64,000 bases of DNA from Eledone cirrhosa. Lineage: Eukaryota. Shown piece after piece: positions 15,862-64,000 of the stretch (position 1 is its first letter; every line of letters begins with the position of its first letter). A program made the translations under genes and the position numbers. Under the pieces are notes generated by a model that saw only the letters and a program-made list of their open reading frames with translations, ran no database searches and was not told the origin of the DNA. The stretch is from NCBI GenBank assembly GCA_964016885.1, contig OZ024743.1, forward strand, positions 155,124,001 to 155,188,000, read 5' to 3'.

Positions 15862-18378
15862 CTATATATAGGGCTTAAAGTTTTGGAAGGAATGCCTGAG
15901 GCGGTGCTGGCAAGTTGCAAACACCTCAGATTTTTTGTTAAGTAGGTTACGGTTGGAGAAGATAATATTGTGTGTCTCTAGTATACAGAGGTTACAGAAT
16001 TTATTAGGTGGTTTGTACGAGGTCGCGCTGCCTATCACTTCCCATTTGAGTGTGTATGGTTTATTTTTAGATTTTAGATAGTGTATGTAGCTAGAAAGTG
16101 AGGTGGAGTTGGCTAGGCTGTGCTTTTTGAACGAGTGGATGTGCGAGTTATATCTAATTTTGAAGCAGTTAGAAGTGGAGCCTACATAGGTTTCTGAAGA
16201 GTTATTAGTCGTGACTGTGCATGAGTATATGACATCCTTGGTTAGGCATTTTTTATCTAAAGGGCAGGTTCTATTAGCTCTACAGTTACAATTATTCTGT
16301 GCGTTAGTCCGCTGGTTATAATGCAATGCGGAAGTCTGTGTGGTGGATATAGGATTTTGGGTGTTCAGGTTGACAACCCTGGTGTTATTACTTATACTAG
16401 TGTTATTTCTATTGTTACTGCCGTTGCTATTGTTGCTTGCTACAGTGGTATTTAGAGGGTTTGCATCCCGTTGTGATTTTGTTTGTTGGAAGTAAGAACT
16501 AATTTTACTATTATTGCTGCTAGCTATGTGGTATGCTAAGTTAGGCGTCGTAGAGTATGAGATTTTAATGGTGTTTTTGTTTAAGAGGTTGTGGTACTTG
16601 TGTCCTAGAGGGAAGTTTTTATCTAGTAGTGAGAAGAAAGCCCTAGGTATGTTGGTGGAGACATTTAGGTTGAAAGGAGGGTTGAAAAATGTATTATTTC
16701 TTCTTCTATTTTTGCTTTTAGTGTTTGGTGTGTTGCTTCCTCCTAAGGCCTCACAGTAGTTTCCATGGTAATGGTTACTACCGGTGGCACCGTCCGCTTT
16801 GGTGTACTTGTGGTTGCTATTCCTATTATTAGATTTCCTCATGGACATGTTGTGCGAGATGATGTTGTAGCTATGTGTTTTCTTAGGTAGGAACTCTATT
16901 TCTATATTATGGCCGGAGCTAGCTAATGCTTGATTGTAATATTGTGAGTTTTTGCTAAATATGTTTGCGTCATAGGACAGACTAGAGATTCTATTGGACA
17001 CCCCCTTAGAGATAGAGTTTAATATTGATCTAGGGTGATTAGTCTTGGTATCTACGTAAATAAGTTTCTCATTAGGCTTATGGAAAGGTGTATATATTTT
17101 TGAGTCTAGGTATTGTGTGGCGTCTAGGAAGTTAACATTTTTAGTGTTTTTGTCCATGGTGATACTAAGGTTAAAGTTTTTGAATGTCTTATGCAGTTGT
17201 TTTCTAGTTCTTTCTATATTAAATTTTTTATATTCTATGAGTAGAAGTGCATCATCGCGGTACAAACCACCGTTGAGGTAAGGGAGGTCTTTATGGATTT
17301 CATTGAGGAGGTATAGGCCGACCAAATCAGTGACCTGCGCCGAGTCACTAGATCCCATGGTTATGTCGAAGTTGTTGTGCGTATCCTTGCGTGTCCATAG
17401 TTGGTCCTCGAAGGTGATTATGGTTTTACGGGCCGCAAGGATGACATCAACCTGGGCTCTAGTCAGGTCGCTATTGGTCATGGCCATGATAAGTGCCTTA
17501 TTTAATAGGATAGGGGAAATAGAGGTGTAGTATGAATTGATATCAAATTGAATAAATTTTTTGTTCTTATTATTCTTGATATCCTTAAACCATTCAATTA
17601 CTTCACCCGTATTTCCCCATTGTTTAAGGTGTATCTTGTGTTTAATTTGTGGGATGATTTTATCCAAAATCTTCTTGCTGATAATACCAATGTCGGACTT
17701 GGAAGGGCAGATAAGTCTTATCGTGGGGTTGCTGATGAAGTTCTCCTTATGGTCCTTCAGAGAGAATCTAGGGGGGTTCGGAGTGAAAGGTTGTGTATGC
17801 CTCTGTAGTCCTAGTTTAGACACTATATTATAACCCTCTACATTAATATCTTCTAAGTTTTTCAAGGTGGTTTTTTTGTAGCTTTTATGTAGTTCATTAT
17901 ATATAAACTTTCTATAAGTAATATAATCTAGGCTGTATATGTTATTAGTTTTATCTGCGTGTACAATAATTTTATTACTAGTTTTGAATCCACTAATAGA
18001 AGTGTTAAGTTTGTTTAAGAAGGTGTTGCTTCTAATATGGTGCTTATTGTATTTAATGTTCTTAACTAGTTTAACTAGGTCATTTTCAAAGGAGTTAAGT
18101 AGAGTGTTATGAGGGGGGCTTTTAAAGGTTTTAAAGCCGAAGGAGTCAAAATTGTTAGTATTATTCAAGTTGTTAGATTTGTTTCTATCATAATGGAATG
18201 TCCTCCATCTCACTCTATTGATAAATGAATTTACACTGTTGATCAGCAATTTCTCATATGTATTCCTGGATGGTATTGGTATGTTCTTGGTCGACATGGG
18301 GAGTTGGTCTTTGATTAGCACAATAATGTTTTGAACAGTTCTTTGATTCTTATATTTCATATATTTCATATATTTCAT
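15862..18378 (-). CDS. Penelope-like retroelement protein (Hydra-clade-like): reverse transcriptase + C-terminal GIY-YIG endonuclease, uninterrupted ORF; likely start at ATG 18297 (MSTKNIP)
   Basis: RT motifs LKDHK, RLICPSKSDIG, QFDINSYYTSI, FDITMGSSDSAQVTDLVG, LYRDD, VNFLD. Endonuclease motifs CNCRANRTCPL, VIYSC...YVGST...FKIRYNSH, CNLCILE, LLNKKSE, CQH. Confidence 0.95.
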   Translation of the reverse strand: MKYMKYMKYKNQRTVQNIIVLIKDQLPMSTKNIPIPSRNTYEKLLINSVNSFINRVRWRTFHYDRNKSNNLNNTNNFDSFGFKTFKSPPHNTLLNSFENDLVKLVKNIKYNKHHIRSNTFLNKLNTSISGFKTSNKIIVHADKTNNIYSLDYITYRKFIYNELHKSYKKTTLKNLEDINVEGYNIVSKLGLQRHTQPFTPNPPRFSLKDHKENFISNPTIRLICPSKSDIGIISKKILDKIIPQIKHKIHLKQWGNTGEVIEWFKDIKNNKNKKFIQFDINSYYTSISPILLNKALIMAMTNSDLTRAQVDVILAARKTIITFEDQLWTRKDTHNNFDITMGSSDSAQVTDLVGLYLLNEIHKDLPYLNGGLYRDDALLLIEYKKFNIERTRKQLHKTFKNFNLSITMDKNTKNVNFLDATQYLDSKIYTPFHKPNEKLIYVDTKTNHPRSILNSISKGVSNRISSLSYDANIFSKNSQYYNQALASSGHNIEIEFLPKKTHSYNIISHNMSMRKSNNRNSNHKYTKADGATGSNHYHGNYCEALGGSNTPNTKSKNRRRNNTFFNPPFNLNVSTNIPRAFFSLLDKNFPLGHKYHNLLNKNTIKISYSTTPNLAYHIASSNNSKISSYFQQTKSQRDANPLNTTVASNNSNGSNNRNNTSISNNTRVVNLNTQNPISTTQTSALHYNQRTNAQNNCNCRANRTCPLDKKCLTKDVIYSCTVTTNNSSETYVGSTSNCFKIRYNSHIHSFKKHSLANSTSLSSYIHYLKSKNKPYTLKWEVIGSATSYKPPNKFCNLCILETHNIIFSNRNLLNKKSEVFATCQHRLRHSFQNFKPYI

Positions 18379-18397
18379 AAATAAATATATATATATT

Positions 18398-29427: not shown

Positions 29428-30065
29428 TACACACCCATATATACATACACACACACATACACACATATATATATATATATACACACATATATATACACAC
29501 AAAAATACATACACATACACATAGGTATGTGGAGGGCAAAACAAAAATAATATATGGGGGGGGGGCTAAGAGGAGGTAAACATATAAGGGGAGGTAAGAG
29601 AGAAAAAATTTTAAATATACAAGAGTACAGAAGGTAGAATCAGCAAAATAAAAACCGTAGCAGACGTAAAGAGCAGAGAAGGAGTTCAAGGCGGTTGATT
29701 TATCGTAGGAGTGTCAATCCAGTTACAGATCAGATGCGATTTCAGATGAGGATAGCATCTGAAGATCTCAGTCTTTGAGTTAAGGCAAGCGGAAGTGGCT
29801 CTCAAGTTTAGCAAAATCCTATACTTTTCTGTGGTACACAAAGAGCAATTCTTTGTGCCCCTTTGGTACTCCCTCGAATGGTCTAATATAGACCAATCAA
29901 TAGAGTACGGGATATTACTATCCTTGAGATCCCATACCTTACTTGCGAGCGCCGTTGATGTTCGTTTATCTGATTGTTTAAAAGAAGCGACATGTGAGTA
30001 AAATCTGGTTTTAAACCTGTCCTGGGTCATACCGACATATCGCTCACTTCTGGCTGGCTGGTTGT
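29150..30065 (-). pseudogene. PLE 3' fragment: GIY-YIG C-terminus (29686-30065), 3' UTR with internal microsatellite, decayed family B HHR (about 29238-29300)
   Basis: RYVGMTQDRFKTRFYSH...STAL...WDLK...IDWSIL...CSLCTTEK...LNSKTEIF. The HHR copy has an ATGAAGA core and GTG at the cleavage site. Confidence 0.88.
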
Positions 30066-30258
30066 TGATATATATATATATATATGTATGTATGTATGTG
30101 TGTGTAAGTATGCTTTTGTTTTTTTTTGTGTGTGTGTTTGCATGCGTCGTTTTATTTTATTTTATTTTTCCTTTCCTTCTCCCTTCTCCAGCCTCACTTT
30201 CATATAGATTGTATTTTTTGGTTTGTAATCCAAATTCAATAAACAAACCAGCTTTTTC

Positions 30259-36649: not shown

Positions 36650-38518
36650 ATTCCACCCTACATACATTTACATATATACATATATATAGACATAAAATAT
36701 AAGATATACATTAACATTTAAAATAATATTCACTTGCATGATTATCGATCAAGCATAGAGTAGACAACAGATATCAATATTAAAAATTAAAAACGCCAAG
36801 AATATCTTCGTCACTCCACAGAGTATCTAGGGACGCAAGAGAACATAGTATGCCACGCATATCGGTCACATAAAATCAGAATCAAAAGCAAACTAAACCA
36901 AAATTGTTCACCAAGCCTTATTTAGCAGAAATCATTCAAAACTTATTCTACAAATGCTCTTATATTTATTATAGAAGTTTATCCAGCTTAAAAATGTATT
37001 CAAAAGATTGGGAATAACGCCAATTTTAGGGTAGTTTATTTAATCTCATTAATTATATATTCATGCAGAAAGGTTTTAAAAAAAAATTGAAGGAATCGAA
37101 AGATTTATCGCCAAGTTTCATAAATAGTTAAATATCTTAAGTAAATATACTACATTTTATACTACATTTTAAATTTATATTTATATTTAAAAGTTGAGTT
37201 CATTCTATGTCTGCAGCAGCTGAATACATTGGTTCGTAAATTAAGGGAATTTTTAGATTTTAGTATAAAGAATATCTCCTCCGCGCAGAGGTCATTTGTC
37301 TCAGAAGAGGAATTAAAAGGAATCCCTTTTGAGACTATATTCCAAACCATCGAATATCCAACTTGATCATGCTTAAGTTGCCAGAGTAACCCTGACAGCG
37401 ATGTTGAAGATTTTTTATTTGGATCCGTGAAAGAATTTTTGTGATTATTATAGCGAAGTTTAAATTCTGTCGAGGTGGAACCAACATAATTAAAAGAATT
37501 TAAATCAGTTCTAACATTACAGTTGTATATTATATTTTTAACTAAGCAATTGTTATTTAGCGGACATTTAGATCTATCTCTACATTTACAGTTTTTTACT
37601 AGAATATTGTTTAGGCTATTTTCGGTATTTTGGCTAGGTTTTAGATTCCTATTATTTATTCTATTAATATTTTGTGCTAAATTTTTGGTGGACGAGTACG
37701 TTAATTTTATAGTATGTCTATTGAAAATTGAGTGATACTTATGTGTTCTAGGGAAGCGTTTGTCAAGAGCATTAAAAAATAGTTTAGCGATGTGGGTTTT
37801 AATGTTTAGTGAGACAGGGGGGGTGGGGGGGGGCAAACCATATTATATTTCTAGTTCTATTTCTTTTCTGGTTTTTGAGATTATTGTAGTGCTTTCTATT
37901 ATAGTTGTTAAAGTTATTACTGTAATTAAAATTGTTGTTATTTTGGTTAGTTTGTCTATTATCGATGTACATAATTTTATCACTATATCCTGCTCTAGCT
38001 AAAGCTTCATTATAATACTGGGCTTTTTCGTCAAAAATATTTTTATTGGTAGAGATTCTAGAGATACGTTTTTGAACAGAGTTCACTATAGTATTTTTGA
38101 CAGATCTGGGGTGATTGGAGCTAAAATTGACATAATTCAAGTTTTCATTTAACTTGTGAAATGGATAGTGAAGACGTGTGTTGAGATTAAATGTTACGTC
38201 TAGGAAATTGACTATTCTATGGTTATTCTCAATTTCTATTTTTAGATTAAGGTAATTAAAAAATTGTATAATTTGTTTTCTTTTCTTATTTAGTTCAGAG
38301 TTATTATTTTCAATAAGTAAAAGCATGTCATCTCTATATAAACCTCCGGTAACACCGGGTATTTTCCTATGCAGCGAATTAATTATAAATAGGCCCACAA
38401 GGTCCGTTACCTGAGCTGAGTCTGATGATCCCATAGTAATGTCAAAATTATTATCTCTATCTGCCCTAGTCCATAGTTGGTTATTAAGTTCTATCAAAGT
38501 TTTCCTTCTCTCTCCCAT
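36650..38518 (-). pseudogene. 5'-truncated Hydra-clade-like PLE (RT C-terminal half + GIY-YIG; frameshift near 37820), flanked by inverted family A copies (36556-36642 minus, 38519-38930 plus)
   Basis: FDITMGSSDSAQVTDLVG, LYRDD, VNFLDVTF, IIWFAPP, CKCRDRSKCPL, YVGSTSTEFKLRYNNH. Confidence 0.93.
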
Positions 38519-38732
38519 ATCTCCTTGTCTCTCTATCTCGCTCTGTTGTTTTTCTTTACATACATCTCTTCATTTTTTTATTTACATACATCTCTTCATC
38601 TTCTTCGTCTCATCTTCGTTTTTCTTTCTATATAACTGTCATAACAGTTTCACTACCAAATACACTTTTTAAATGGAAGTTGCATTATTATAAGGTATGT
38701 CAATAATTATTTATAAAACAGCTTATGTATTG

Positions 38733-46019: not shown

Positions 46020-46860
46020 ACAAAATGATATAAAAAAAAAAGGTGGGTATGTAAAGGGTAAGGTAGAAGGTAGGGGGGAATAAGGAAAATAAATGACATA
46101 GGAAAAGGTTTAAATATAAAGGAAGATAAAGGAGAAAAAGTATATAAGAGTACAGAAAGTGAGTTCAGAAGGTAAAAACTCGTAGTGGATGTAATGCGTA
46201 GAGAGCAGTGAAGTTCAAGGTGGTTGAGTTATCGTAGGAATGTCAATATAGTTACAGATCAGATGTGATTTCAGGTGAGGACAACATCTGAATATCTCGG
46301 TCTTGGAGATCAGGCAAGTTGAAGTGGCTTTCTTTTTTTGTAAAATCCTAAATTGTTCAGTGGTACACAAAGAACAATTCTTTGTGCCCCTTTGGTACTC
46401 CCTCGAATGTTCTAAAATCGCCAATCGATAGAGTACGGGATGTTTTTATCATTGAATTCCCACACCTTTTTTTGCGAGAGCCGTTGCTGTTCTTTTATCG
46501 GAGTGTTTAAAAGAAGCGACATGTGCATAAAACCTGGTTTTAAACCTATCCTGGGTCATGCCAACATATCGTTCACTCCTGGCTGGCTGGTTGTTAATTT
46601 AAGTTATCACTTTGGCCTCATATACAACGGATGTGGTGTCACATTTGCCCTGTAATGGGCATTCATCCGGCTTCCTGCAACTGCATTCTAGATTTATTCT
46701 CGCACGATTAGAATTAGTGATTTTAGACTTCAATGATGGGCGGCAAGAGTAACTGATTTTAACTACATTTCTATTAAATATATATATAATATCTATGATT
46801 AGCAGGAAAATGTTTGTGTAACGGGTCAAGGAATTTCCTTCCTACATTAGTTTCGGACTA
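46020..46860 (-). pseudogene. Inverted 3' fragment of a Hydra-clade-like PLE (linker + GIY-YIG + UTR)
   Basis: IFNRNVVKISYSC, CSCRKPDECPLQGKC, CSLCTTE, CCPH; diverged reverse complement of 48220-49050. Confidence 0.92.
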
Positions 46861-49060
46861 TTCAATGCTGATATTAATGATTGTTTTGATATAAAATCAC
46901 GTGAATACCCACCTAGAATTAAAGACATGGCCAACATCGAATTAGACCTTGTTACTTTAATTAGTGATATCAAATTTCGTAAGTACAATAATAATGTTCA
47001 AACTAAACTGTCTACCGATATTTCTAATTTTAAAAATTCTACAAACACTTTTGTTCTTTCCGATAAAACTAAATATCTCTTTGAAGTTAATATTATTTTG
47101 TATAACCAACTTTTAACTAATAGTATCACCAACAAATATCAATTAACTAATAATAACATCTGCAATACTATTAATAAAGAAGCTAAAGAACTAGCTATTT
47201 CTTTAAAAATAGACAACCGCATTGAAAGCCTAGCTAAACGTAAAGCATATATTACCCTTAAAGACAATAAATTAGACTTTACTAATCGACCTAGTTGTAG
47301 ACTGATTAAGCAGGCTAAATCCGAAGTTGGCCTTGCAAGTAAAAAAATCTTAAGAAAAATAATTCTCCAAATTAGAACTAAGACTGACTTATAACAATGG
47401 TTAAATACATCCTCTGTTATTTCTTGGTTTAATAATATGCAAGGTAAAAATAAGTGTAGATTTACCCAATTTGATATTGTTGATTTGTACCCCTCTATTA
47501 CTGTTTCCTTATTAACTAATGCCTTAAATTTTGCCAGACCGTTCATTAATATTTCTAAATTAGAAGAAGACATTATCTTTCATGTTGAGAAATACTTTAC
47601 TCTTTACTAATGAAAGTATTTGGGTTAAAAAGTCAAACCCTGAAAACTCTTTTGATGTTGCAATGGGTTCATATGACAGTGCGGATGTGTGTGACTTAGT
47701 AGGATTATTCCTTCTCCACACCTTCAAAGAGAAATTTCCTTCCCATAATATCGGTTTATACTGTGACGACGGATTGGCAGTTTCTCATACCATCAACGGC
47801 CAAAACCTTGATAAATTCCGTAAAGATGTAATCAATACTTTTGCTAATCTTAACCTTATAATTACTATAGATACGAACCTTACCAATGCGCTAACTTTCT
47901 TGACATTAATCTTGATCTACTTACTGCCTCTTTTAAACATTATCATAAACCTAACGAAAATCTTAGATATATACACAATGAGTCTTGCCATCCCCCTATA
48001 GTTTTTAAAAATCTTATTCCCAACATTAGCCGTAGGATTTCTACCTTATATACGTCTCTAGACATATTTAATAAAGCCACTCCTTATTATAATAAACCCC
48101 TTAATAACAGCGGATTTACAGAACACATTAATTATTTACCTACTCCTACCCCTAAAACTAACCACGATAATAGGAAAAGGAAAATTATTTGGTTTACACC
48201 CCCTTCTCTCTAACTGTCAAATCTAATGTAGGAAGGAAATTCCGCGACCTTTTAGACAAACATTTCCTCCTAAGCATAGATATTATAAGATATTTAATAG
48301 AAATGTAGTTAAAATCAGTTACACTTGCTGCCCATCAATGAGGTCTAAAATCACTAATTCTAATCGTACGAGAATAAATCCAGGATGCACTTGCAGGAAG
48401 CCAGATGAATGACATTACAGGGCAAATATAACACCAAATCCGTTGTATATCAGGCCAAAGTGACACCTTTAATTAGCAACCAGCCAGCCAGGAGTGAACG
48501 ATATGTTAGCCTGACGCAGCACAGGTTTGAAACTAGGTTTCATGCACATGTCGCTTCTTTTAAACACTCCGATAAAAGAACAGCAACGGCTTTCGCAAAT
48601 AAGGTGTGGGAATTCAAGGATAAAAACATCCCGTACTCTATCGATTGGTCTATTTTAGACCATTCGAGGGAGTAACAGAGAGGCACAACAAATTTTTCTT
48701 TGTGTACCACTGACAAATTTAGGATTTTACAAAACTTGAGAGCCACTTCAACTTGCCTGAACTCCAAGACAGAGATCTTCAGATGTTGTCCTCACCTGAA
48801 ATCACATCTGATCTGTAACTGGATTGACATTCCTACGATAACTCAACCACCTTGAACTTCTCTGATCTCTACGCATTACATCCACTACGAGTTTTTACTT
48901 TCTGAACTCACTTTCTGTATTCTTATATTATTTTTCTCCCTTATCTCCCCTTTATATTTAAACCTTTTCCTATGTCATTTATTTACCTTATTTTTCCCTC
49001 TACTTTCTACCTTACCCTTTACATACCCACCTTTTTTATTTGTAGATATTTATTTCTCTG
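46861..49060 (+). pseudogene. Near-full-length Hydra-clade-like PLE with stops and frameshifts
   Basis: AYITLKDNK..F..RPSCRLI, QFDIVDLYPSI, FDVAMGSYDSADVCDLVG, LYCDDGL, IIWFTPP, RYVSLTQHRFETRFHAH. Confidence 0.95.
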
Positions 49061-49420: not shown

Positions 49421-49465
<45 letters not shown>

Positions 49466-49567
49466 GTATTTTGCAAAACACTTTATGCTTAATTAAAAGC
49501 ATTTTGAAGACCGTAAGCTATTGTTTTACAGTAGTGTCAAATTCACTTACTTTGATCTCAGCAAACA

Positions 49568-49630
49568 GGGGAGATAAGCCGACAAGGCCTTGTTTCGCTT
49601 TGGTTGAAGCTTATCAAGGCTAACTACCCC
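49568..49630 (-). ncRNA. Hammerhead ribozyme variant with U3-A8 core and well-formed helices
   Basis: Reverse complement: GGGGtagttAGCC TTGATAA GCTT-caacca-AAGC GAAA CAAGGCCTTG TC GGCTtatctCCCC. Confidence 0.82.
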
Positions 49631-49671
49631 TCCTGTCTACCGAGATCACTGATGTTATATTCTTATAGAAA

Positions 49672-49770
49672 TCTAGTAAATAATCAGGAGCTGATTATGC
49701 AGAGCGGTTGTAACCCAACAGTCTAGTAAATAATCAGGAGCTGATTATGCAGAGCGTTGTAACCCAACAA
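49672..49770 (+). repeat. 50-bp tandem duplication joined to the family A 3' terminus
   Basis: tctagtaaataatcaggagctgattatgcagagcg(g)ttgtaacccaaca occurs twice; the following atcttaaataaaacttttgca matches 38910-38930. Confidence 0.85.
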
Positions 49771-51479: not shown

Positions 51480-52620
51480 CTTTGAGTCTCAGTCGTAGAT
51501 GTTAGTTAACTGGAAAGTTTGTTGAAATGAATATCAATCCACTACCTGCAGCCTCAGATATTCAGGACGTATCGGAGGGTTATATCTGTTCCCAGCAAGC
51601 ATGCCTTTTGAAGCGTTCGAAAAAGCGTGAAGGGGCCAATTTTCTTTAACCATCCCTGGAAACTTTTTGAGATAGTACCTAGTGCGCCTATAACAATCGG
51701 GACCACTTTGAGTTCATGGCAGTTCCAAATCCTTTTTATCTCCCACTTTAAGTCCTGGTATCGGTTAATTTTCTCCCTCTCCTTCTCTTGCACTCTTGTG
51801 CCGAATGGGCAGGCCACATCCACAATCAGGCACGATCTTTTTTCTTTGTACACAACCATCAGGTCAGGTCTATTATGTTCCAGTTTCTTGTCCGTCTGTA
51901 TAGTAAAATCCCACAGCATCTTCACCTGATCGTTTTCTATCACCGACTCTGGCTTATGCTGATACCACTTCTCAGAATGTGGAAAATTGTTTACTTTGCA
52001 TAGGTGCCAGTGGATCACCCTGCCCATCACATCATGTCTCCAGCCCTTATAGTGAGTCTGGGCTAGGTGTTTACACTCGGATCTAATGTGAGCAACAATC
52101 TCCTCTCTCTCTGCACAGAACCTGCACAGTGGGCTAGCCTCCTCCTTGTAAATATGGTGTTTCAACCACTTCGTTTTGAGGGCCTGCTCCTGCGCAGCCA
52201 TTAACATTCCTTCTGTAGCCTTTTTAAGGTCTCCTCTTTTCAACCAGTTCCATGTCTGTGCATCTCTCAATTCAGTTTTCTCAAAGAAGGTACTATGAAG
52301 GGATTGTTCCTGAAGGTTGTCTCTTTCTCCTTGATGTTATTTCCTCCTTGGACATCCCCTGGCCTATTGTCCCCTCCTTCAGTACAGTTCTGAGCATTGG
52401 CTCCTTACTATCAGTCACGTATTTGTGTAGATTGTTTTTCTCCATCTGAACACAGTCCTCTATGCTGATAAGACCACTTCCAACCTCAGATCTCCTTAAG
52501 TAGAGTCTATCGACATCACTCCTCTTGTGGAACATGTTGTAGATAGTCAATAGCTTCCTAGTCTTCCTATCCATTTGTTTTTGTTCAGCACCATTCCATC
52601 TCAGAATTCCCGCACTGTAC
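51480..52620 (-). mobile_element. 5'-truncated R4/Dong-like non-LTR retrotransposon (zinc knuckle + restriction-like endonuclease) within (TAA)n
   Basis: CRFC..EIVAHIRSEC, RHD, NRPD, IVDVACP, VVPIVIGALG; (TTA)n on both sides; same family as 60700-61840. Confidence 0.95.
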
Positions 52621-52689
52621 CTAATTATTATTATTATTATTATTATTATTGTTACTATTATTATTACTCTTTTTTTTTCTTTTTTTTTT

Positions 52690-55600
52690 CCAATTCAATG
52701 TTATTCCGGAACAATATAAAAGAGATAATTGGCAATTTAGGTTCTGGAACAAAAAAGATAATTGGCAATAAGGGCAGGGGCCCCAGGTTATCACAGCCTG
52801 GGCCCGCTCGTCATCGTGCCACTGTAATAGAACCAAACAAGGCATTTAGTCTTGGCTACTGGAACGTACGGACGCTGCTTGACAGGGATTCCTTGGAGCG
52901 TCGTGAAAGAAGGACCGCTCTTGTTGCAAAGGAGCTTCGACGTTACGATCTTGACATCGTGGCTTTATCGGAGACGGGGTTAGCTGGAGATGGTCATCTT
53001 ACAGAATGTTGTGGAGAATATACATTCTTCTGGATAGGAAGAGATGAAGGAACCAGAAGAGAGCCTGGGGTAGGATTTGCTGTTAAGACTGTTCTTGTGA
53101 ATACATTAGAAGAATTCTCAGTAGGGATTAGTGAGAGTCTTAAGTCCATGATAATTCCGCTGGACAAAGGAAGATATGCGATCCTGGTGAGGGTGTATTC
53201 CCCAACTATGAATTCTGTCTATGAAGAAAATGTGTCCTTTTACCATGCCTTGAAAAGTGTTTTAAGAAATAACCCTCAGGCAGACAATGTCATCGTGCTT
53301 GTTGACTTGAATGCTAGAGTGGGTAGGGATTGTAACACATGGAATGTAATCGGAAGGCATGGGGTGGGAAAGTGTAACAACAATGGTATGCTCCTGCTGC
53401 AGATGTGTGAGGAGCTGGATCTGTGTGTTACCAACACCATGTTCCAACAAAAGAACAAATTCAAGACCACATGGATGCATCCTGCATCTAAGGAATGGCA
53501 TCTTTTGGACTACGTGCTAGTCAGGATGCATGACAGACAGGATGTGCATTGTGTTCGTGCTCTTCGCGGAGCTGAGTGCTGGACGGACCACCGCCTGGTA
53601 CGCGCAAAAGTGAAACTAATCACTAAACGTAAAATCCGGGCTCCTGGTGTTGCCCTGCCCAAAAGATTGAATGCTGCTCGTCTTAAGGATAAAAGTGTGA
53701 AGAGGACATTGGAAGAAGAGATGCAGGTTGCAGATCTTGTTGAGGATTGGCCGACTCTTAAAAAGTCGGTTTATCATGTAGGTAGGCGTATTCTGGGATT
53801 GGTGCACAGAAATCATCAGGACTGGTTTAATGAGAATGATGTACATATAGAAGACTTGTTGGCTGATAAGAGGCTTGCTCTGTCACGCTACTTGACGGCA
53901 AAACCAGAGGAGAGGAATACGTTCCATGAGGAATTCAAGGATGTAAAATCACGTGTTAGGCGGAGTCTTACTCAGATGAAGGATCAGTGGTGGAGTGAGA
54001 AGGCTGGAGAGATACAAACCGCGTCAGATTCCAATAACACAAGGCTGTAGTACAGTCTTTTATGTGAGGTTTATGGACCGTCTTCTTCTCTGGTGACACC
54101 GCTTCGCAGCAAGGAGGGCAAATAATTTCTTGGTGACTCACACTACGAAGGTGGCGAGAGCACTTTGATGATCTTTCGAATCAGCCGTCTGTCGTCAGTG
54201 AAGATTTCCTCAATTTCATTCCGGAAAGTCCTGTGAAAGTAGCTCTCGCAGAACCTCCGACGCTTGTGGAGGTTGCAGTGGCTATCTCGAAGCTGAACAG
54301 TCGAAGGTCTCCAGGTATGGATGGCATACATGCTGAGCTCCTACAATATGGTGGTGAGAGACTCCTCCAACATCTTCACTCTTTGTCTGGCAGGATATGG
54401 GCTAATGAATCTGTACCTGAGGAGTGGAGAGATGCAGTAATGGTGGTCTTGTACAAGAGAAAGGGTAACAGGAATCATTGTGGGAACTACAGAGGAATAT
54501 CATTGCTTTCTATCGCAGGCAAAGTCTTCTGTAGGGTGCTTCTGGACCGTCTACTGACACATATTGCAGATTGTGTTCTTCCTGAAAGTCAATCTGGTTT
54601 TCGTGCTGGACGCGGCACTACATATATGATTTTCTCAGCTAGACAGCTCCAGGAGAAGTGCATGAAACAAGGTTTGGATCTGTATCAGGTTTTTGTTGAT
54701 CTGACAAAAGCTTTCGATACTGTTAACAGAGATGCATTATGGAAGGTTCTCCAGAAACTTGGTTACCCTGATAAGTTCCTTGCTTTAGTTAGGTCTTTCC
54801 ATGACGACATGATGGCTTGGGTTAATGTAAGAGGTAACATGTCGGATCCTATCGCAGTAAAAAATGGAGTGAAACGGGGATATTTCAGCACCGACCCTGT
54901 TTGCCATATACTTTGCAATGGTTTTCTGTATTGCATTCAGGAATTGCGAGCATGGTGTTTACATCCGATATCGAACCTCAGGCAGCCTATTTAACATCAG
55001 GCGCTTTGCTGCAAAGACAAAAGAATTTACATCAATCATAAGATACCTCTTGTATGCAGATGATTTGATCTTGTAGCGCACACAGAGAGTGATATGCAGC
55101 ACATTTTGAATGCATTTTCTGACGCATTTTCTGACGCTTGCACTGCCCTAGGATTGACTGTCATTGACTGTCAGTACACTGAACCAAATATCTATGTGTA
55201 TGGTAAACGACTTGGAGTGGTCGATCAGTTTGTCTGCCTGGGAAGGACTGTCAATCGATACAGCAACCTTGACAGTGAAATCTCACTTAGGATTAGGAAA
55301 GCAAGTGATGCTTTCGGAAAGCTAGAAAGGCGACTCTGGGGTCGGCGAGACATATCCAGGAGGACAAAGTTAAAGGTGTACAAGGCATGTGTGCTCTCTT
55401 GTCTACTTTATGCCTGCGAGACCTGCGTCACATATCGACACCACCTTAAGCAATGGAGCGTTTCCATCAAATGTGTCTCAGACAGATCCATGGCGTTCAC
55501 TGGAGGGACCACATCAGTGATGTTGATATTTTGGAAAGCTCTATGTGTGACAGTATAGAAGCTCTTGTGCTTAAGCAACGACTCCGTTGGAGTGGTCACC

Positions 55601-56187
55601 TTGCCAGGATGAATGATAATAGAATACCAAAACAACTCTTTTATGGAGAGTTGGTTAAAGGAAAACGACCGCCACATAAACCAAAAAAGAGGTATAAGGA
55701 TTCCTTGAAAGCCTCTTTGAAAGACGCTAACATCTCTGCTGATACATGGGACAATATTGCTGCTGATCGTAATAAATGGAGAAAGACTGTATATGATGGA
55801 CAAGTTGATTTTTAGGCATCTCGAATCGCATACGAGAAAGTAAAGCGGGATGTGAGGAAGGGCATTGCTGTTGCACTTCCAGACGGTGAGGGTCCTCCTA
55901 TGGTACTGACATGCAGCGTCTGTGCGAGACTCTGCCTAAACAACGCTGGACTCGAAAGTCATCTTCGCAGGCATAAAGTAAAACCAGTGGTTGACTACCA
56001 GGCTGCTGTTGGAGATGCAACACATCATGCTTGCCAAGCATGTGGTAGATATAAGCGACATGCAAAAGAACACGAACTCCAACCACAGCCGGCTATTCCC
56101 AGTGAATGTTTTGGTTGCCGTCTCTGTGCAAGACATTTTAGATAATTGGCTGGGCTAAAAAGCCACATTCGATCGCAGCGGTGTTAG
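52690..56187 (+). mobile_element. Near-full-length RTE (BovB-like) LINE: APE endonuclease, RT and C-terminal C2H2 fingers; disrupted
   Basis: WNVRTL, IVALSETGL, DLNARVG, LLDYVL, TDHRLV, NYRGISLL, QSGFR, FVDLTKAFD, YADD at about 55051-55064, RLRWSGHLARM. Confidence 0.95.
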
Positions 56188-58489: not shown

Positions 58490-61400
58490 TTCGCCAATCC
58501 TCGATAAAAGTGTTTAAATATCGAACATAAACAGTTCGAATAACGGTGAAATGGAGACTAGAACGTCATGTGACAGACTCTCACCCAACAGGTGCCCCCT
58601 GGCTCAGCAGCAGGAACCTGACTGTCAACCAAATACTGCTGATGTTGGAGGAAGGAGAAGAAGGAAAGGGGCCAGCACCAACTGGACGAAATAATTGAAT
58701 AGAACTGTTATGCAATGTTACCTGAAAAGTAACCCCAAGGAGAGGGGGTACAGGAGACGGATGCATAACATCTGGAACGAGATTGGTTTATTTAAATTAG
58801 ATGAACAAAAATTGGCCGGGCAGGCTCGGGTAATAAGAACTAATGGATGGATAAGCGAGCTGGAACTGGAGGAACTGAGCAGAGAGAATGGCTTGGAGAT
58901 GGCGGGTGTAGTATGCCAGACAAGCGAGACAGTGGGAAATGAAGGTGAAGAGGTCCTGAGAACGGAGGAACCACCCGAAGCAGACAATGATCTGAATACT
59001 GAGATAAATAATACCTGGAACAGAGATACGGCCACTGAGGAGATGAATGCTGACGGGCTAGGACAAGATTCGGTTGACATCCTAAATTTAGTGGTAGATG
59101 AATTGAACAATCATAGTGGGAGACCTATGAACCTAAGATTCGTAGACAGGAAAAAGTTAAAAGAAACAACAGCTAAGGTAAACAGAGTCATCCCATACCT
59201 TGAGGCGAGGAGCCTTCACCAGTGCAACAATATCCTCAAAGCAACAGCAAATACGGTGAGGAAACTACTTGGTATAAAAGCGAGAGGAAACAACAGACAA
59301 GAAAGAGCAGAGCCGTGGTGGAAGAAGCGACTGAGCGGGCAAATCGGGGAAATGAGAAATGACATAGGAAAGCTTGAGTCACTACTGAATGGGACACTAA
59401 AAAACATAGGCACTAAAAATAGACTGGAAATAAAATACAAAACTAGGAGGAAAAAGCTAAATATTATCATAGAGGAACTGAAGCTAAAACATTCTGGAGA
59501 GGAATATGGGAGCAGGATGTTAGACACAATGCCCAGGCAGGGTGGATTGAGACAGTACAGAGGGAGATCGGTGAGCAGGCACAACAACAAACTGATTTGA
59601 GTATCACAGTTGAAACTCTTAAGGGGCAGGCCAAAAAACTAACCAACTGGAAATCACCAGGCCCAGATGGTGTGCAGGGGTATTGGATTAAACATTTAAC
59701 ATCCCTCCACCCGAAGCTGACGGCCATGTTCAATGACTGCTTGGTGTCGGGTGAGGTGCCAGAGTGGTTGACAAAAGGTACCACAGTTCTGATAATGAAA
59801 GACCGAATCAAGGGTAATGATGTTACCAACTATAGACCTATCACATGTCTGTCCGTAATGTGGAAACTGTTGACGAGCATTGTGTCTGAGGAAATCTACC
59901 ATCACCTCCACACAAACAACTTGTTACCGGACGAACAGAAAGGATGCCGAAAGAAGTCACGTGGTACAAAGGACCAGTTACTTATTGATAAGATGGTAAT
60001 GGGGAATTGCAGGAGGAGACACACTGATCTTGCCATGGGATGGATAGACTACAGAAAGGCATTTGACATGGTGCCTCATTCCTGGATCACCAAAAGCCTG
60101 GAGATCTTCAGGGTGGCAGATAACATCAGACAGTTGATAGGCAGGAGTATGGGGTCCTGGGAGACAGAGTTGACATCAACTGGAGTATCCTTGGGAAGCG
60201 TGAAGATCAAGAGAGGTATCTTCCAGGGAGATAGCCTGTCCCCTCTGTTGTTTGTCCTTGCCCTGATGCCCTTGACCATTATGCTGCGAAAAGTGAGAGC
60301 AGGATACAAGTTGGGAAGAGGAGAGCTTACCATCAATCACCTCCTCTTCGGGAAAAGTGAGAAGGAGTTGGATGTGCTTGTTGACACTGTCCGTATTTTC
60401 AGCAGTGATATATGTATGCAGTTTGGTATTGGTAAATGTGGAGTCATTGTGATGAAGAGGGGTAGGTTGAGCAGATGTAACGGGATCCAGATACCAAGAG
60501 GTGAGATGATAAGGGAAATTGACTCTGAGGAGGGATACAAGGATTTGGGCGTTCTGGAGGCTGATGGCATAAAGAACAAAAAAAATGAAGGAATTGTTAA
60601 GAACTGAATACATTCGGAGAGTAAGGAGCGTATTGAAGTCACATCTGAACAGCAGAAATGCCATAAGCGCAGTAAATTCCCGAGCTGTGTCTATTATTAG
60701 GTACAGTGCGGGAATTCTGAGATGGAATGTTGCTGAACAAAAAGAAATGGATAGGAAGACTAGGAAGCTATTGACTATCTACAACATGTTCCACAAGAGG
60801 AGTGATGTCGATAGACTCTACCTAAGGAGATGTGCGGGTGGAAGAGGTCTTATCAGCATAGAGGACTGTGTTCAGATGGAGAAAAACAACATATACAAAT
60901 ACGTGACCTATAGTAGGAGCCAATGCTCAGAACTGTACTGAAGGAGGGGTCAGTAGGCCAGGGGATGTCCAAGGAGGAAATAACATCAAGGAGGAAGAGC
61001 AGCCTTAAGGGAAAATCCCTTCATAGTACCTTCTTTGAGAAAACTGAATTTAGAGATCCACAGACATGGAACTGGTTGAGAAGAGGAGACCTCAAAAAGG
61101 CTACAGAAGGAATGCTAATGGCTGCGCAGGAGCAGGCCCTCAAAAGGAAGTGGTTGAAGCACCATATCTACAAGGAGGAGGCTAGCCCACTGTGCGAATC
61201 TGTAGAGAGAGAGAGGAGACTGTGGCTCACATTGTGTCCGAGTGTAAACACCTAGCCCAGACCCACTATAAGGGCTGGAGACACGATGTGATGGGCAGGG
61301 TGATCCACTGGCACCTGTGCAAAGTAAACAATTTACCACATTCTGAGAAATGGTATGAGCATAGGCCAGAGGCGGTGATGGAGAACAATCAGGTGAAGGT

Positions 61401-61847
61401 GCTGTGGGATTTTAGGATACAGACGGACAAAAAACTGGAACACAATAGACCTGACCTGGTGGTTGTGGACAAAGAAAAAAGATCGTGTCTGATTGTGGAT
61501 GTGGCCTGCCCGTTCGACACGAGAGTGCAAGAGAAGGAGAGGGAGAAAATTAACCGATACCAGGACCTAAAGTGGGAGGTGAAAAGGATTTGGAACTGCC
61601 ATGAAGTCAAAGTGATCCCGATTGTCATACGCGCACTGGGGACTATCTCCAAATGTTTCCAGGGATGGTTAAAGAAAATCGGCCCCTTCACGCTTTTTGG
61701 AACGCTTCAAAAGGCATGCTTGCTTGGAACAGCAAGAACCCTCCGATACGTCCTGAATATCTGAGGCTGCAGGTAGTGGCTTGATATTCAATCCAACGGA
61801 CTTTCCAGTTAACCAACATCAATGACTGAGATTCAAGGAATAACAAC

Positions 61848-61886
<39 letters not shown>
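58490..61886 (+). mobile_element. Near-full-length R4/Dong-like retrotransposon with (TAA)n tail; internal deletions and frameshifts
   Basis: WKSPGPDGVQGYWIK, YRPITCL, EQKGC, WIDYRKAFD, RGIFQGDSLSPLLF, GGRGL, CRIC..ETVAHIVSEC, RHD, RPD. Confidence 0.96.
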
Positions 61887-61887
<1 letters not shown>

Positions 61888-62833
61888 TTTTCTTTATTAA
61901 CCACAAGGGTTTACATGAAGTAGACATTAAGGACAGTACAGGACAATACAGGACGTTGCAAATGGGCATTTCTGCGTGTAAAAAAAACAGAGGATGAAAT
62001 AAAGTAACAAAGAAAAATTCCCCAATAGGGGGGAGACTTCCGAGGGACATTTGTGGAGAAAGCCCATTAAAAGACCACAGTGGCCCTGACCACCAGGGCA
62101 AGTGCCCTCTCCCAGTTTTCCACCTTTAATTTACAGACACATACTCAGAGAAAGCCCATTCATTCGGGCCATACTTGCTTCTCTCACCCATCTTTCAACA
62201 AAATGCTGGGAAGAGAGCACTTCCCTCTCTACCCTGATTTTCCTTTTCAGATGAAATTTGAAAAAGTTAATCAGGGCATCACCGAGAGGTAAGTGGTCGT
62301 CTTCAGGCCTTTCAAACGTGTCCACCATACTATCTCTTTCGCCATGGCCACCAGACAGATAAAAACTGCCTGCCCTTCCCGGCTAAAGGAAGGGGGCGGG
62401 GCAATCCTCACGATGGACTCAGTTGATAGCTGGATCCGTCCTACACGTGACAGCAGGTGTTCGACATAAACCCACAAGCCAGCAATGCTCGGACACTGGA
62501 CGAGTGCGTGAAGGACGGTTTCGTCGCCCTGCGCGCATCTCGGACATGCCCGTTTGACGGCACCTCCATGCCTGTAGAGTTTATCCCGAACTGGCAAAGC
62601 TCCTCGGTAGCACTGCCAGGCCAGGGATTTCTGGAAGTTGTCCATAGGCCCCGGCCCGAAAGTCCTTCCGAAGAGATTGGCTAGTAGATTTTCGTCGACG
62701 CCTAGAGTTTCTCCAAGTACGTCGTCGCTCTTCCGCTCCACTAATCCCCTATAGAACGCCAAGGTGGAGTTTCCACCGATCACATTGCCCGATTGGTCGA
62801 GGGCTGTGAGCGCCTGAAGACATTCCAGTCTCA
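61887..62833 (-). mobile_element. 3' fragment of an L1/Tx1-like LINE inserted in (AAT)n
   Basis: WQCYRGALPVRDKL...CPRC..DETVLHALVQC...IVWWTR (zf-RVT-type C-terminus); AATAAA near the 3' end; (AAT)n on both sides. Confidence 0.8.
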
Positions 62834-62851
62834 ATAATAATAATAATAATA

Positions 62852-64000
62852 AGGACTAGATAAATGCGCCAGAGCAACGTTCAACAGAGGAAAGCTGCTG
62901 AAGAGTTCAGACATTAATCTTGATCGGGGGAACGTGATAAGAGAACTTGATCAAGAAAAAACTTACAAATATCTAGGTGTTTGTGAAGGAGGCGGAATCA
63001 AGCACTCGACAATGAGGGAAAGGATAAGGAAGGAATATTACCGCAGAGTAAGAGCAATCTTGAGAACGGAATTGAATGCAAGGAATAGGATCGATGCCAT
63101 AAACACGCTTGCCATACCAGTAGTAACCTACAGTTACAATGTCATCAACTGCTCAAGCAAAGAGATCCGTAGGCTCGATACAAAAATTCGAAAATTCTTA
63201 ACCATGCACAGAATGCATCACCCTAAGGCAGATATAGATAGAATATATCTCCCTAGGAAAGAAGGAGGACGTGGGTTAATCCAGTTAGACATTGCGTTGA
63301 AAACTGCAACAATATGATTATCTACATATCTAAGGGAATCACATGATTGGATGATCAAACTCGTTTTGAAACACGAAAGCATCAACAGATCATATTCCAT
63401 TACAAAAGATGCACAAATATACAGTAATGGACTACAAATTTCAGAAGTCCCATTTACTGCTGAAATGGTAAACACAGAAAAAGCAAAGCAGGTAAAAGTA
63501 ACTGCAAAGAAAGAACTGCTACAGAAACTGGCTAAGAAATGGCAAGAAAAGCCTCTGTATGGAAAATACCCAGAGCGAGCTAACAATCCTGATGTTGTCA
63601 AAACTTTAACCCATCAGTGGTTGGCATCCTCTGGACTGAAATCGGAGACTGAAGGACTGATTATATCGGCACAAGATCAGTGTCTGCCAACAAAACTTAC
63701 CAACATAATAAAAAATGGGTGCAGCCCATTATGCCGTGTATGCAAAAAACAACCAGAGACCATTGACCATATAATTTCAATGTGCAGTCCTATAGCTCCA
63801 ACCGAATACCTAAACAGGCATGACAGAGCTGCACAATACATATATTGGATAATGTGAAAGCATTTTGACCTGCCCCATCAAAAGAATTGGTGGGAGCATC
63901 AACCACCTCCCATACTTGAAAAAGATCACATCTCAATCTTGTGGAACTTTAGCATCCAAACAGACCGAAAAATAGATGCAAATAGACCTGATATAATATT
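62852..64000 (+). mobile_element. 5'-truncated R4/Dong-like element of a second subfamily, running off the window
   Basis: YKYLG, RIYLPRKEGGRGL, ETEGLIISAQDQ, CRVC..ETIDHIISMC, RHD, NRPD. Confidence 0.93.

What the first reader, a model, noticed from the sequence alone, without database searches (positions are those of the whole stretch)
49463..49630. Conserved two-hairpin 3' module downstream of unrelated hammerheads
About 60-70 nt after the cleavage site the 311-bp unit reads tagc..GGTCTTCAAA ATGTTTA-tta-TAAACAT aca GAATATT-ttcg-AATATTC. The unrelated U3-A8 element here (minus strand) reads tagc..GGTCTTCAAA ATGCTT-ttaatt-AAGCAT aaa GTGTTTT-gc-AAAATAC, then (TA)n. Hairpin 1 shows a T-A to C-G compensatory change and hairpin 2 keeps its pairing with a different sequence. 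The 3380 element also has tcttcataatgt at a similar distance. Candidate RT-recognition or priming signal. In the 311 unit, aggtcttca can also pair with the core tgaagattt, a possible inhibitory fold.
Basis: partly seen in the sequence, partly recalled or inferred. Interest (0 to 1): 0.72.

Follow-up and report, generated by a model that had tools for sequence, protein, structure and literature searches.

The report
Start-site RNA domain of retrozyme clan
The two-hairpin motif is real, but its carriers are relatives, not unrelated ribozymes: it is part of a conserved, predicted RNA fold in one clan of about 310-base ribozyme-carrying repeats (some 29,000 copies in this animal genome), placed just before the two fixed points where the copies end, so it likely helps a Penelope-type reverse transcriptase pick up the RNA and start copying.

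Summary
The motif exists (29,141 genome matches, control 0), but the two carriers are homologous over their whole length (global score 246.5 vs 103±9.5 shuffled). They belong to one clan of ~310-320-bp hammerhead tandem units (non-LTR retrozymes). The box follows 97 of 100 clan hammerheads and 0 of 58 non-clan ones, so the 'unrelated hammerheads' claim fails. Hairpins 1 and 2 stay paired in all 18 subfamily majority sequences, with three double changes, which is only about one event each on the tree. The predicted fold is larger: a closing stem, the unpaired GGUCUUC-N-AAA box and three hairpins. Of 187 copy ends, 85 fall at hairpin 3 and 86 about 30 nt later; 46 of 51 two-armed insertions have one of each, the Penelope 'tail' signature. 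The inhibitory fold is not supported. No autonomous partner was found. Best reading: a clan-specific template domain for a Penelope-type RT (about 0.55). The scan had already called the 310-bp family a Penelope-mobilised retrozyme on other DNA; none of my look-ups returned the clan or this domain.

The parts
49463..49770 (-). One 5'-truncated, single-arm copy of the ~316-bp U3-A8 subfamily; short 3' end merging into (TA)n; a 50-bp duplication at its 5' junction (outer limit approximate)
   Evidence: (2,532 first-look candidates, 40 scored, 96-100% identical)
49662..49700 (-). Conserved upstream blocks (TAATCAG-YTCCTG and TTCTATAAG); resemble the U1 upstream layout of this genome, test inconclusive
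49627..49652 (-). 5' strand of the long stem that extends hammerhead helix I (predicted to pair with 49571-49553)
49581..49621 (-). Type I hammerhead, U3-A8 core TTGATAA (49617-49611), palindromic helix III, predicted cleavage after GTC at 49581
   Evidence: U3-A8 variant described in PMC4209133
49530..49552 (-). Hairpin between ribozyme and module (its inner stem is in the consensus fold)
49517..49522 (-). 5' strand (AATAGC) of predicted closing stem P1; its partner GCTATT is in the tail, which this copy lacks
49500..49512 (-). Box GGTCTTC-N-AAATG (N = A, G or T in the clan), predicted mostly unpaired
49485..49502 (-). Hairpin 1 (6 bp; C-G / U-A / U-G at one pair)
49464..49481 (-). Hairpin 2 (7 bp, free 4-nt loop); this copy has a private change at 49477
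896..2577 (+). Forward arm of the 311-bp subfamily array (boxes at 952, 1263, 1574, 1885, 2196, 2507); short 3' end into (TA)n near 2565
1..895 (-). Inverted arm of the same 311-bp array (boxes at 350 and 39); runs off the window
3382..3786 (.).

Best explanation
The motif is part of a conserved, predicted RNA domain of one clan of ~310-320-bp hammerhead tandem repeats (non-LTR retrozymes), and it likely serves as part of the template signal by which a Penelope-type reverse transcriptase binds the RNA and starts copying. Shown: clan homology, copy number, fixed spacing from the ribozyme, pair-preserving changes in hairpins 1 and 2, two fixed 3' ends about 30 nt apart in (TA)n, and one end of each kind on the two arms of an insertion. 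Predicted: a closing stem P1 encloses the unpaired box and hairpins 1-3. Inferred: multi-unit RNA is cut by the hammerheads (perhaps circularised); a Penelope-type protein supplied in trans nicks (TA)n DNA, binds this domain plus the tail, primes at hairpin 3 for one arm and at the tail end for the other, and copies 5'-ward, so the module is always retained while the hammerhead is often lost by 5' truncation.
For: Homology and clan. Unbiased sample anchored only on upstream sequence: 63 of 76 copies carry the box, 61 of them 73-84 nt after GAAAC. Structure: hairpins 1 and 2 98-99% paired in 38 distinct copies; no broken pair in 13 pairs across 18 subfamily majority sequences, three double changes and G-U intermediates, while the hairpin 2 loop varies freely (GCAA, TTCG, ACCA, GCCA, ATCA). 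Single folds of two subfamilies (z -2.4, -3.9) and the consensus fold of 7 monomers give P1 plus three hairpins. Box and tail block are invariant in six subfamily representatives although predicted unpaired or partly unpaired. Ends: 85 plus 86 of 187 at two sites, 133 of 187 followed by microsatellite; 46 of 51 arm pairs mixed, binomial p 2e-9. Analogy: Poseidon RT starts at two internal sites in an AC-rich stem-loop and the tail lies between them (PMC11167929); tail usually at one end only (PMC8557442).
Against: No autonomous element carrying the module was found. Each double change is about one event on the tree; two of five whole-structure measures did not beat shuffles (pairs with double change 4 vs 4.4, 480/500; further pair types 11 vs 14, 500/500). 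P1 has no double change and one pair is broken in 17 of 38 rows; RNAalifold on that alignment gave only hairpins 1 and 2. The 311-bp subfamily folds this region differently and as well on the antisense strand (z -3.16 vs -2.75). The longest invariant block is in the tail, 3' of the first end, so the true RT signal may exclude hairpins 1 and 2. Being next to the start site makes the module present in every copy whatever its role.
Confidence: 0.55

Rival explanations
1. The fold is selected in the RNA but for another job (stability or folding of the circular RNA, ligation, a host RNA-binding protein); the RT signal is the tail alone.
For: The whole non-ribozyme part of the unit is conserved, with several invariant blocks. 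Unrelated families show two ends without any such module, and several share a different small hairpin-like motif just 3' of their first end (by eye). Retrozyme circles are described as highly self-paired (PMC7229834).
Against: P1 would physically join the module to the tail, and the first end falls in hairpin 3 inside the same domain.
Confidence: 0.22
2. No selection on the module: it is shared by recent descent, and the apparent compensatory changes come from templated repair of short inverted repeats in DNA or cDNA.
For: Few independent events; AT-rich near-palindromes; two shuffle measures not exceeded.
Against: G-U type intermediates occur at stem pairs, which DNA palindrome repair would not favour. 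The unpaired box stays fixed while the hammerhead periphery, flanking linkers and loops change, including on the long 311-bp branch.
Confidence: 0.12
3. The box is a DNA-level promoter or an snRNA-type 3'-end signal.
For: Strict sequence conservation with one free position; loose likeness to the 5' half of the recalled vertebrate 3' box consensus (recalled, no call).
Against: No box within 2 mismatches near five U6 loci; U1 upstream and downstream flanks printed show different motifs. A better promoter candidate lies upstream of the hammerhead.
Confidence: 0.05
4. One reading: a convergent signal used by unrelated hammerhead elements, possibly an inhibitory fold on the ribozyme core.
For: The non-homologous 597-bp family has TCTTCATAATG about 66 nt after its predicted cleavage site (counted).
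Against: 0 of 58 non-clan hammerheads have the box. The 597-bp match lacks the hairpins and has a different position relative to the end. The same 11-mer occurs at two further window sites without the module, one being the antisense of another hammerhead-like core. Only 14 of 160 core-box contexts have the complementary CTGAAGA core, and the box does not follow core changes; pairing probability at most 0.001.
Confidence: 0.05

Closest known systems
Metazoan non-LTR retrozymes (Cervera and de la Pena 2020, PMC7229834, passages read; Li, Clavereau, Pollet 2026, bioRxiv 10.64898/2026.07.22.740005, parts 1-3 of 5 read)
   Same: Tandem units of about 300 bp, low GC, one type I hammerhead per unit, no ORF, thousands of dispersed copies, PLEs in the same genome.
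   Different: In the passages read no conserved non-ribozyme domain, fixed double ends or two-armed layout is described. Self-cleavage and circular RNA were not tested here.
pLTR and 'tail' of Penelope-like elements; PAc Poseidon in vitro (Frangieh et al. 2024, PMC11167929, parts 1-2 of 4 read; Craig et al. 2021, PMC8557442, passages read)
   Same: Hammerhead followed by two internal start sites, a ~30-nt tail at one end only, inverted 5'-truncated arm, AT-rich targets, AC-rich stem-loop at the first site.
   Different: No ORF; no sequence link to any autonomous PLE examined here; in PAc the start sites lie inside the ORF.
Minimal and U3-A8 hammerheads of metazoan PLEs (Cervera and de la Pena 2014, PMC4209133, parts 1-2 of 4 read)
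   Same: Type I topology, palindromic helix III, C3-G8 and U3-A8 cores.
   Different: Here both cores occur within one homologous clan, on separate branches of its tree.
SINE 3' stem-loops borrowed from a partner LINE (recalled, no call)
   Same: Non-autonomous RNA with a conserved structured signal next to the RT start site.
   Different: Internal rather than terminal initiation; partner not identified; shared sequence with a partner not shown.

Membership tests
Metazoan non-LTR retrozyme | Tandem units of about 150-450 bp, each with a type I hammerhead | tested here: met
   58 distinct units of 304-324 bp; hammerheads
Metazoan non-LTR retrozyme | Non-coding, low GC, dispersed multi-copy | tested here: met
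   No clan-borne ORF in the fetched loci (the latter output partly cut); 29,141 module copies; GC 0.34 over the array
Metazoan non-LTR retrozyme | Self-cleavage and circular RNA in vivo | not testable with these tools
   No RNA holder listed; needs bench work
PLE-mobilised element | Inverted 5'-truncated arm, 30-40-nt tail at one end, microsatellite target | tested here: met
   Two end clusters about 30 nt apart; 46 of 51 mixed arm pairs; 133 of 187 ends at microsatellite
PLE-mobilised element | Homology to the pLTR of an autonomous PLE | tested here: inconclusive
   None in 50 GIY-YIG loci, the young 832-aa family or bystander PLE ends; only a small share of 10,596 and 61,923 first-look candidates was examined
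Motif shared by unrelated hammerhead elements | Occurs 3' of non-homologous hammerheads | tested here: not met
   0 of 58 non-clan hits; carriers homologous
Structured RNA motif | Covariation beyond relatedness | tested here: inconclusive
   All fixed stem changes in hairpins 1-2 keep pairing, but about four events and mixed shuffle results; R-scape not available
Known Rfam family | Match at gathering score | tested here: not met
   0 matches in the window
snRNA promoter or 3' box | Box present in U6 or U1 flanks of this genome | tested here: not met

The most novel reading that the evidence does not exclude
The closing stem, unpaired box and three hairpins form a defined multi-helix RNA domain that recruits a Penelope-type (telomerase-related) reverse transcriptase in trans and sets both start sites, one for each arm of an insertion. 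It would be the first mapped cis-signal of an animal retrozyme, and the clan's natural subfamily series is a ready-made mutational scan.
Probability: 0.3. Interest if true: 0.7.

Novelty: new member of a known kind. Interest (0 to 1): 0.4.

Why it matters
How non-coding retrozymes engage the PLE enzyme is proposed but not shown in the papers read, and how PLE RT selects its template and internal start sites is known from one in vitro system (PMC11167929). A ~100-nt conserved domain bracketing two mapped start sites, with many natural variants, makes both questions directly testable. As a general signal for unrelated hammerheads, the claim that gave the first score, it fails, and the retrozyme-plus-Penelope picture is already known in outline.

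Tried and rejected
Rfam scan: nothing. Antisense hammerhead reading of the box: no GAAA at stem II distance in either unit (by eye). Conserved peptide from the ATG in the box: frames differ between the two units (by eye). GNRA/UUCG tetraloop idea for hairpin 2: loop varies freely. Pol III A/B box reading: no B box seen by eye; not tested by a tool. Inhibitory fold. snRNA promoter or 3' box role for the box. Partner search: GIY-YIG hits, 50 loci (the one same-strand box, L207, is a separate two-armed insertion); young 832-aa PLE; 99 upstream flanks of clan copies, no recurring PLE ORF seen, output partly cut; bystander PLE ends. Expression: no RNA holder listed. Contigs of other runs held near-identical or same-subfamily pieces and gave no independent divergence. 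Metagenome scan: 3 matches without ribozyme or clan context, taken as chance. The P1 rows and the Fisher test were mis-registered by my script (311-bp indel, offset error) and are not used. Literature: six searches listed no paper describing this module; supplements were not opened, and supplementary structure figures of PMC7229834 and PMC11167929 may bear on the comparison.

Full report
Observation. The window is G000:C4:155124001-155188000 of a 3.0-Gb, (TA)n-rich animal genome. On the minus strand, 49621-49581 is a type I hammerhead with a U3-A8 core and palindromic helix III. The box GGTCTTCAAAATG follows 68 nt after the predicted cleavage site, then two hairpins, then (TA)n. Each 311-bp unit at 1-2577 has the same box 69 nt after its site. 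Rfam finds nothing. The 13-mer occurs 28,040 times in the genome against 36 for the reversed control; box plus both hairpins 29,141 times against 0.

The carriers are relatives. The 49463 element is a 5'-truncated copy of a ~316-bp tandem unit. That unit aligns with the 311-bp unit end to end: score 246.5 against 103.4±9.5 (maximum 130.5) in 200 shuffles, about 62% identity. Pattern searches exposed many further subfamilies with cores CTGATGA, CTGAGGA, CTGAAGA and TTGATAA (4,008 matches for the upstream-anchored pattern). In a sample anchored only on upstream sequence, 63 of 76 copies had the box within 2 mismatches, 61 of them 73-84 nt after GAAAC; the 13 misses looked by eye like truncated, deleted or more mutated copies. 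The box is GGTCTTC-N-AAATG.

Test on unrelated hammerheads. Among 158 hammerhead hits in all fetched DNA, 97 of 100 clan hits had the box and 0 of 58 others did (8 multi-copy families, 2 singletons). The non-clan hits were bystanders in loci fetched mostly for the clan, and my descriptor missed most 311-bp copies and the 597-bp family. The 3380 element is that 597-bp family. It has no detectable similarity to the clan (28 and 29 against 26 and 25 shuffled). Its TCTTCATAATG lies about 66 nt after its own predicted site, has no hairpins after it and sits at the insertion end. This one match is unexplained; the same 11-mer occurs at two other window sites without the module, although dinucleotide shuffles expect only 0.14, so I treat it as probably coincidental but not disproved.

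Structure. I aligned 38 of 49 dereplicated tail-bearing copies (11 with indels left out) plus one window unit. Hairpins 1, 2 and 3 are 98.7, 98.1 and 97.0% paired and the closing stem P1 88.6%; four pairs change on both sides; the covariation score beats all 500 shuffles, but the number of such pairs (480/500) and of pair types (500/500) does not. RNAalifold on this alignment predicts only hairpins 1 and 2. Single folds of two subfamilies give P1 around the unpaired box and three hairpins (z -2.43, -3.90); a third keeps the three hairpins with another closure; the 311-bp unit keeps hairpin 2 and P1 but not hairpin 1; the window copy, lacking the tail, is unremarkable (z -0.48). The consensus fold of 7 monomers, none from the 311-bp subfamily, gives the four-helix domain. 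Across 18 subfamily majority sequences none of the 13 pairs of hairpins 1 and 2 is broken, three show double changes, and the hairpin 2 loop varies freely. On a tree built from the ribozyme region alone each double change maps to about one branch, with T-G intermediates at hairpin 1. So hairpins 1 and 2 are well supported but on few events; hairpin 3 and P1 are weaker. Invariant runs across six representatives are GCTATTTCAGAG (tail, 12 nt), TTCTATAAG (9), the box (7 plus 5) and three shorter ones: the box is one of several conserved blocks.

Position relative to copy ends. Of 266 module contexts, 258 were scored, 71 continued into the next unit and 187 ended. 85 ended at hairpin 3, where its AT-rich 3' strand merges with (TA)n, and 86 ended 23-34 nt into the tail; 16 lay elsewhere, 4 of them artefacts of the 200-nt limit; 133 of 187 were followed by a microsatellite. 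In 51 arm pairs, 46 had one short and one tailed end (p 2e-9; two loci contribute two rows each). Craig et al. describe a 30-40-bp tail often at one end only and an inverted 5'-truncated copy (PMC8557442, passages). Frangieh et al. show that a Poseidon RT starts at two internal sites in an AC-rich stem-loop and that the tail lies between them (PMC11167929, parts 1-2). The hairpin 3 loop here is ACATTC or ACATCC in most subfamilies. Earlier AI notes report the two-armed, fixed-end layout for the 310-bp and other families of this genome; I tested it here for this clan.

Mechanism. Shown: homology, copy number, spacing, pair-preserving change, fixed ends. Predicted: the four-helix domain. Inferred: transcription through tandem units, hammerhead cleavage (palindromic helix III suggests dimers; PMC4209133), optional circularisation (PMC7229834, passages), binding by a PLE protein in trans, nicking of (TA)n and priming at two sites, one per arm. 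The module is the first sequence copied. I put the RT-signal role at 0.55; a structural role unrelated to RT, with the tail as the signal, at 0.22; no selection at 0.12.

Rejected readings. Box-core pairing has probability at most 0.001 in four dimers, only 14 of 160 contexts have the complementary core, and the box does not track core changes; most 311-bp sequence in run X1 has the non-complementary core. The box is absent from U6 and U1 flanks. A U1-like upstream layout (TAATCAGT, then TATAAG) lies before the hammerhead, but a U1-derived matrix scored it above nearly all shuffles in only 6 of 30 units and not in the 311-bp unit.

Partner. The genome has many PLEs (10,596 GIY-YIG candidates; a very young 832-aa family with at least 150 identical C-terminal matches, one copy in this window). 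None examined carries the module. Clade names (Neptune-like, Hydra-like) are from recalled features and earlier notes, not from a test. Only a small fraction was examined.

Comparison and verdict. The clan meets the sequence criteria of metazoan non-LTR retrozymes and shows the PLE insertion signature; cleavage and circles are untested. Li et al. 2026 argue that such retrozymes derive from PLE pLTRs (bioRxiv, parts 1-3). Six paper searches listed no description of this module, and look-ups of earlier findings by sequence, place and words returned none for it. New member of a known kind, with a useful, testable cis-domain; interest 0.4.

Noticed in passing
window 15862-18396 (-), element to about 14150: Intact 844-codon frame (RT plus C-terminal GIY-YIG-like domain) of a very young PLE family: 150 of 150 scored matches 100% identical, 4.2-kb tandem unit, hammerhead with a CCGAAGA core in the 3' UTR; no Pfam hit. 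A candidate enzyme for in vitro work.
   Followed up: partly
window 49662-49700 (-) and clan copies: TAATCAGT then TATAAG about 56 nt before the start of the long ribozyme stem resembles the upstream layout of this genome's U1 genes; matrix test positive in 6 of 30 units only.
   Followed up: partly
L067, L094, L110, L118, L122, L128, L148, L155, L164; window 30264 family; L286: Several unrelated hammerhead families and the young PLE share a small hairpin-like motif ((A/G)CTC...GAG) just 3' of their first insertion end; the clan tail may hold a variant. Seen by eye only.
   Followed up: no
window 30264 (+), 26285 (-), 29285 (-), 20874 (-), about 36560 (-): Further hammerhead or hammerhead-like elements of other families, several next to PLE fragments (29686-30156, 37162-38569, 46822-48900).
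   Followed up: partly
L236, L237, L244, L246, L220: A Neptune-like PLE family with a U3-A8 hammerhead (TTGAAAA core) 1.0-1.4 kb after its ORF and two 3' ends about 65 nt apart.
   Followed up: partly
clan tree: C3-G8 and U3-A8 cores are spread over separate branches, so the core pair appears to have switched more than once within the clan.
   Followed up: no
clan units, about 15-20 nt after the tail end: A conserved AATTT(T/C)TG resembles an Sm site (consensus recalled).
   Followed up: no
window 3382-3786; L095-L105: 597-bp tandem family with an oversized helix II, U3-A8 core and two inverted arms.
   Followed up: partly
many fetched loci: Different hammerhead repeat families are stacked in the same (TA)n tracts, often at the 3' ends of PLE copies.
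   Followed up: no
window 51554-55935 and 58695-63857: Fragments of endonuclease-RT non-LTR retrotransposons.
   Followed up: no
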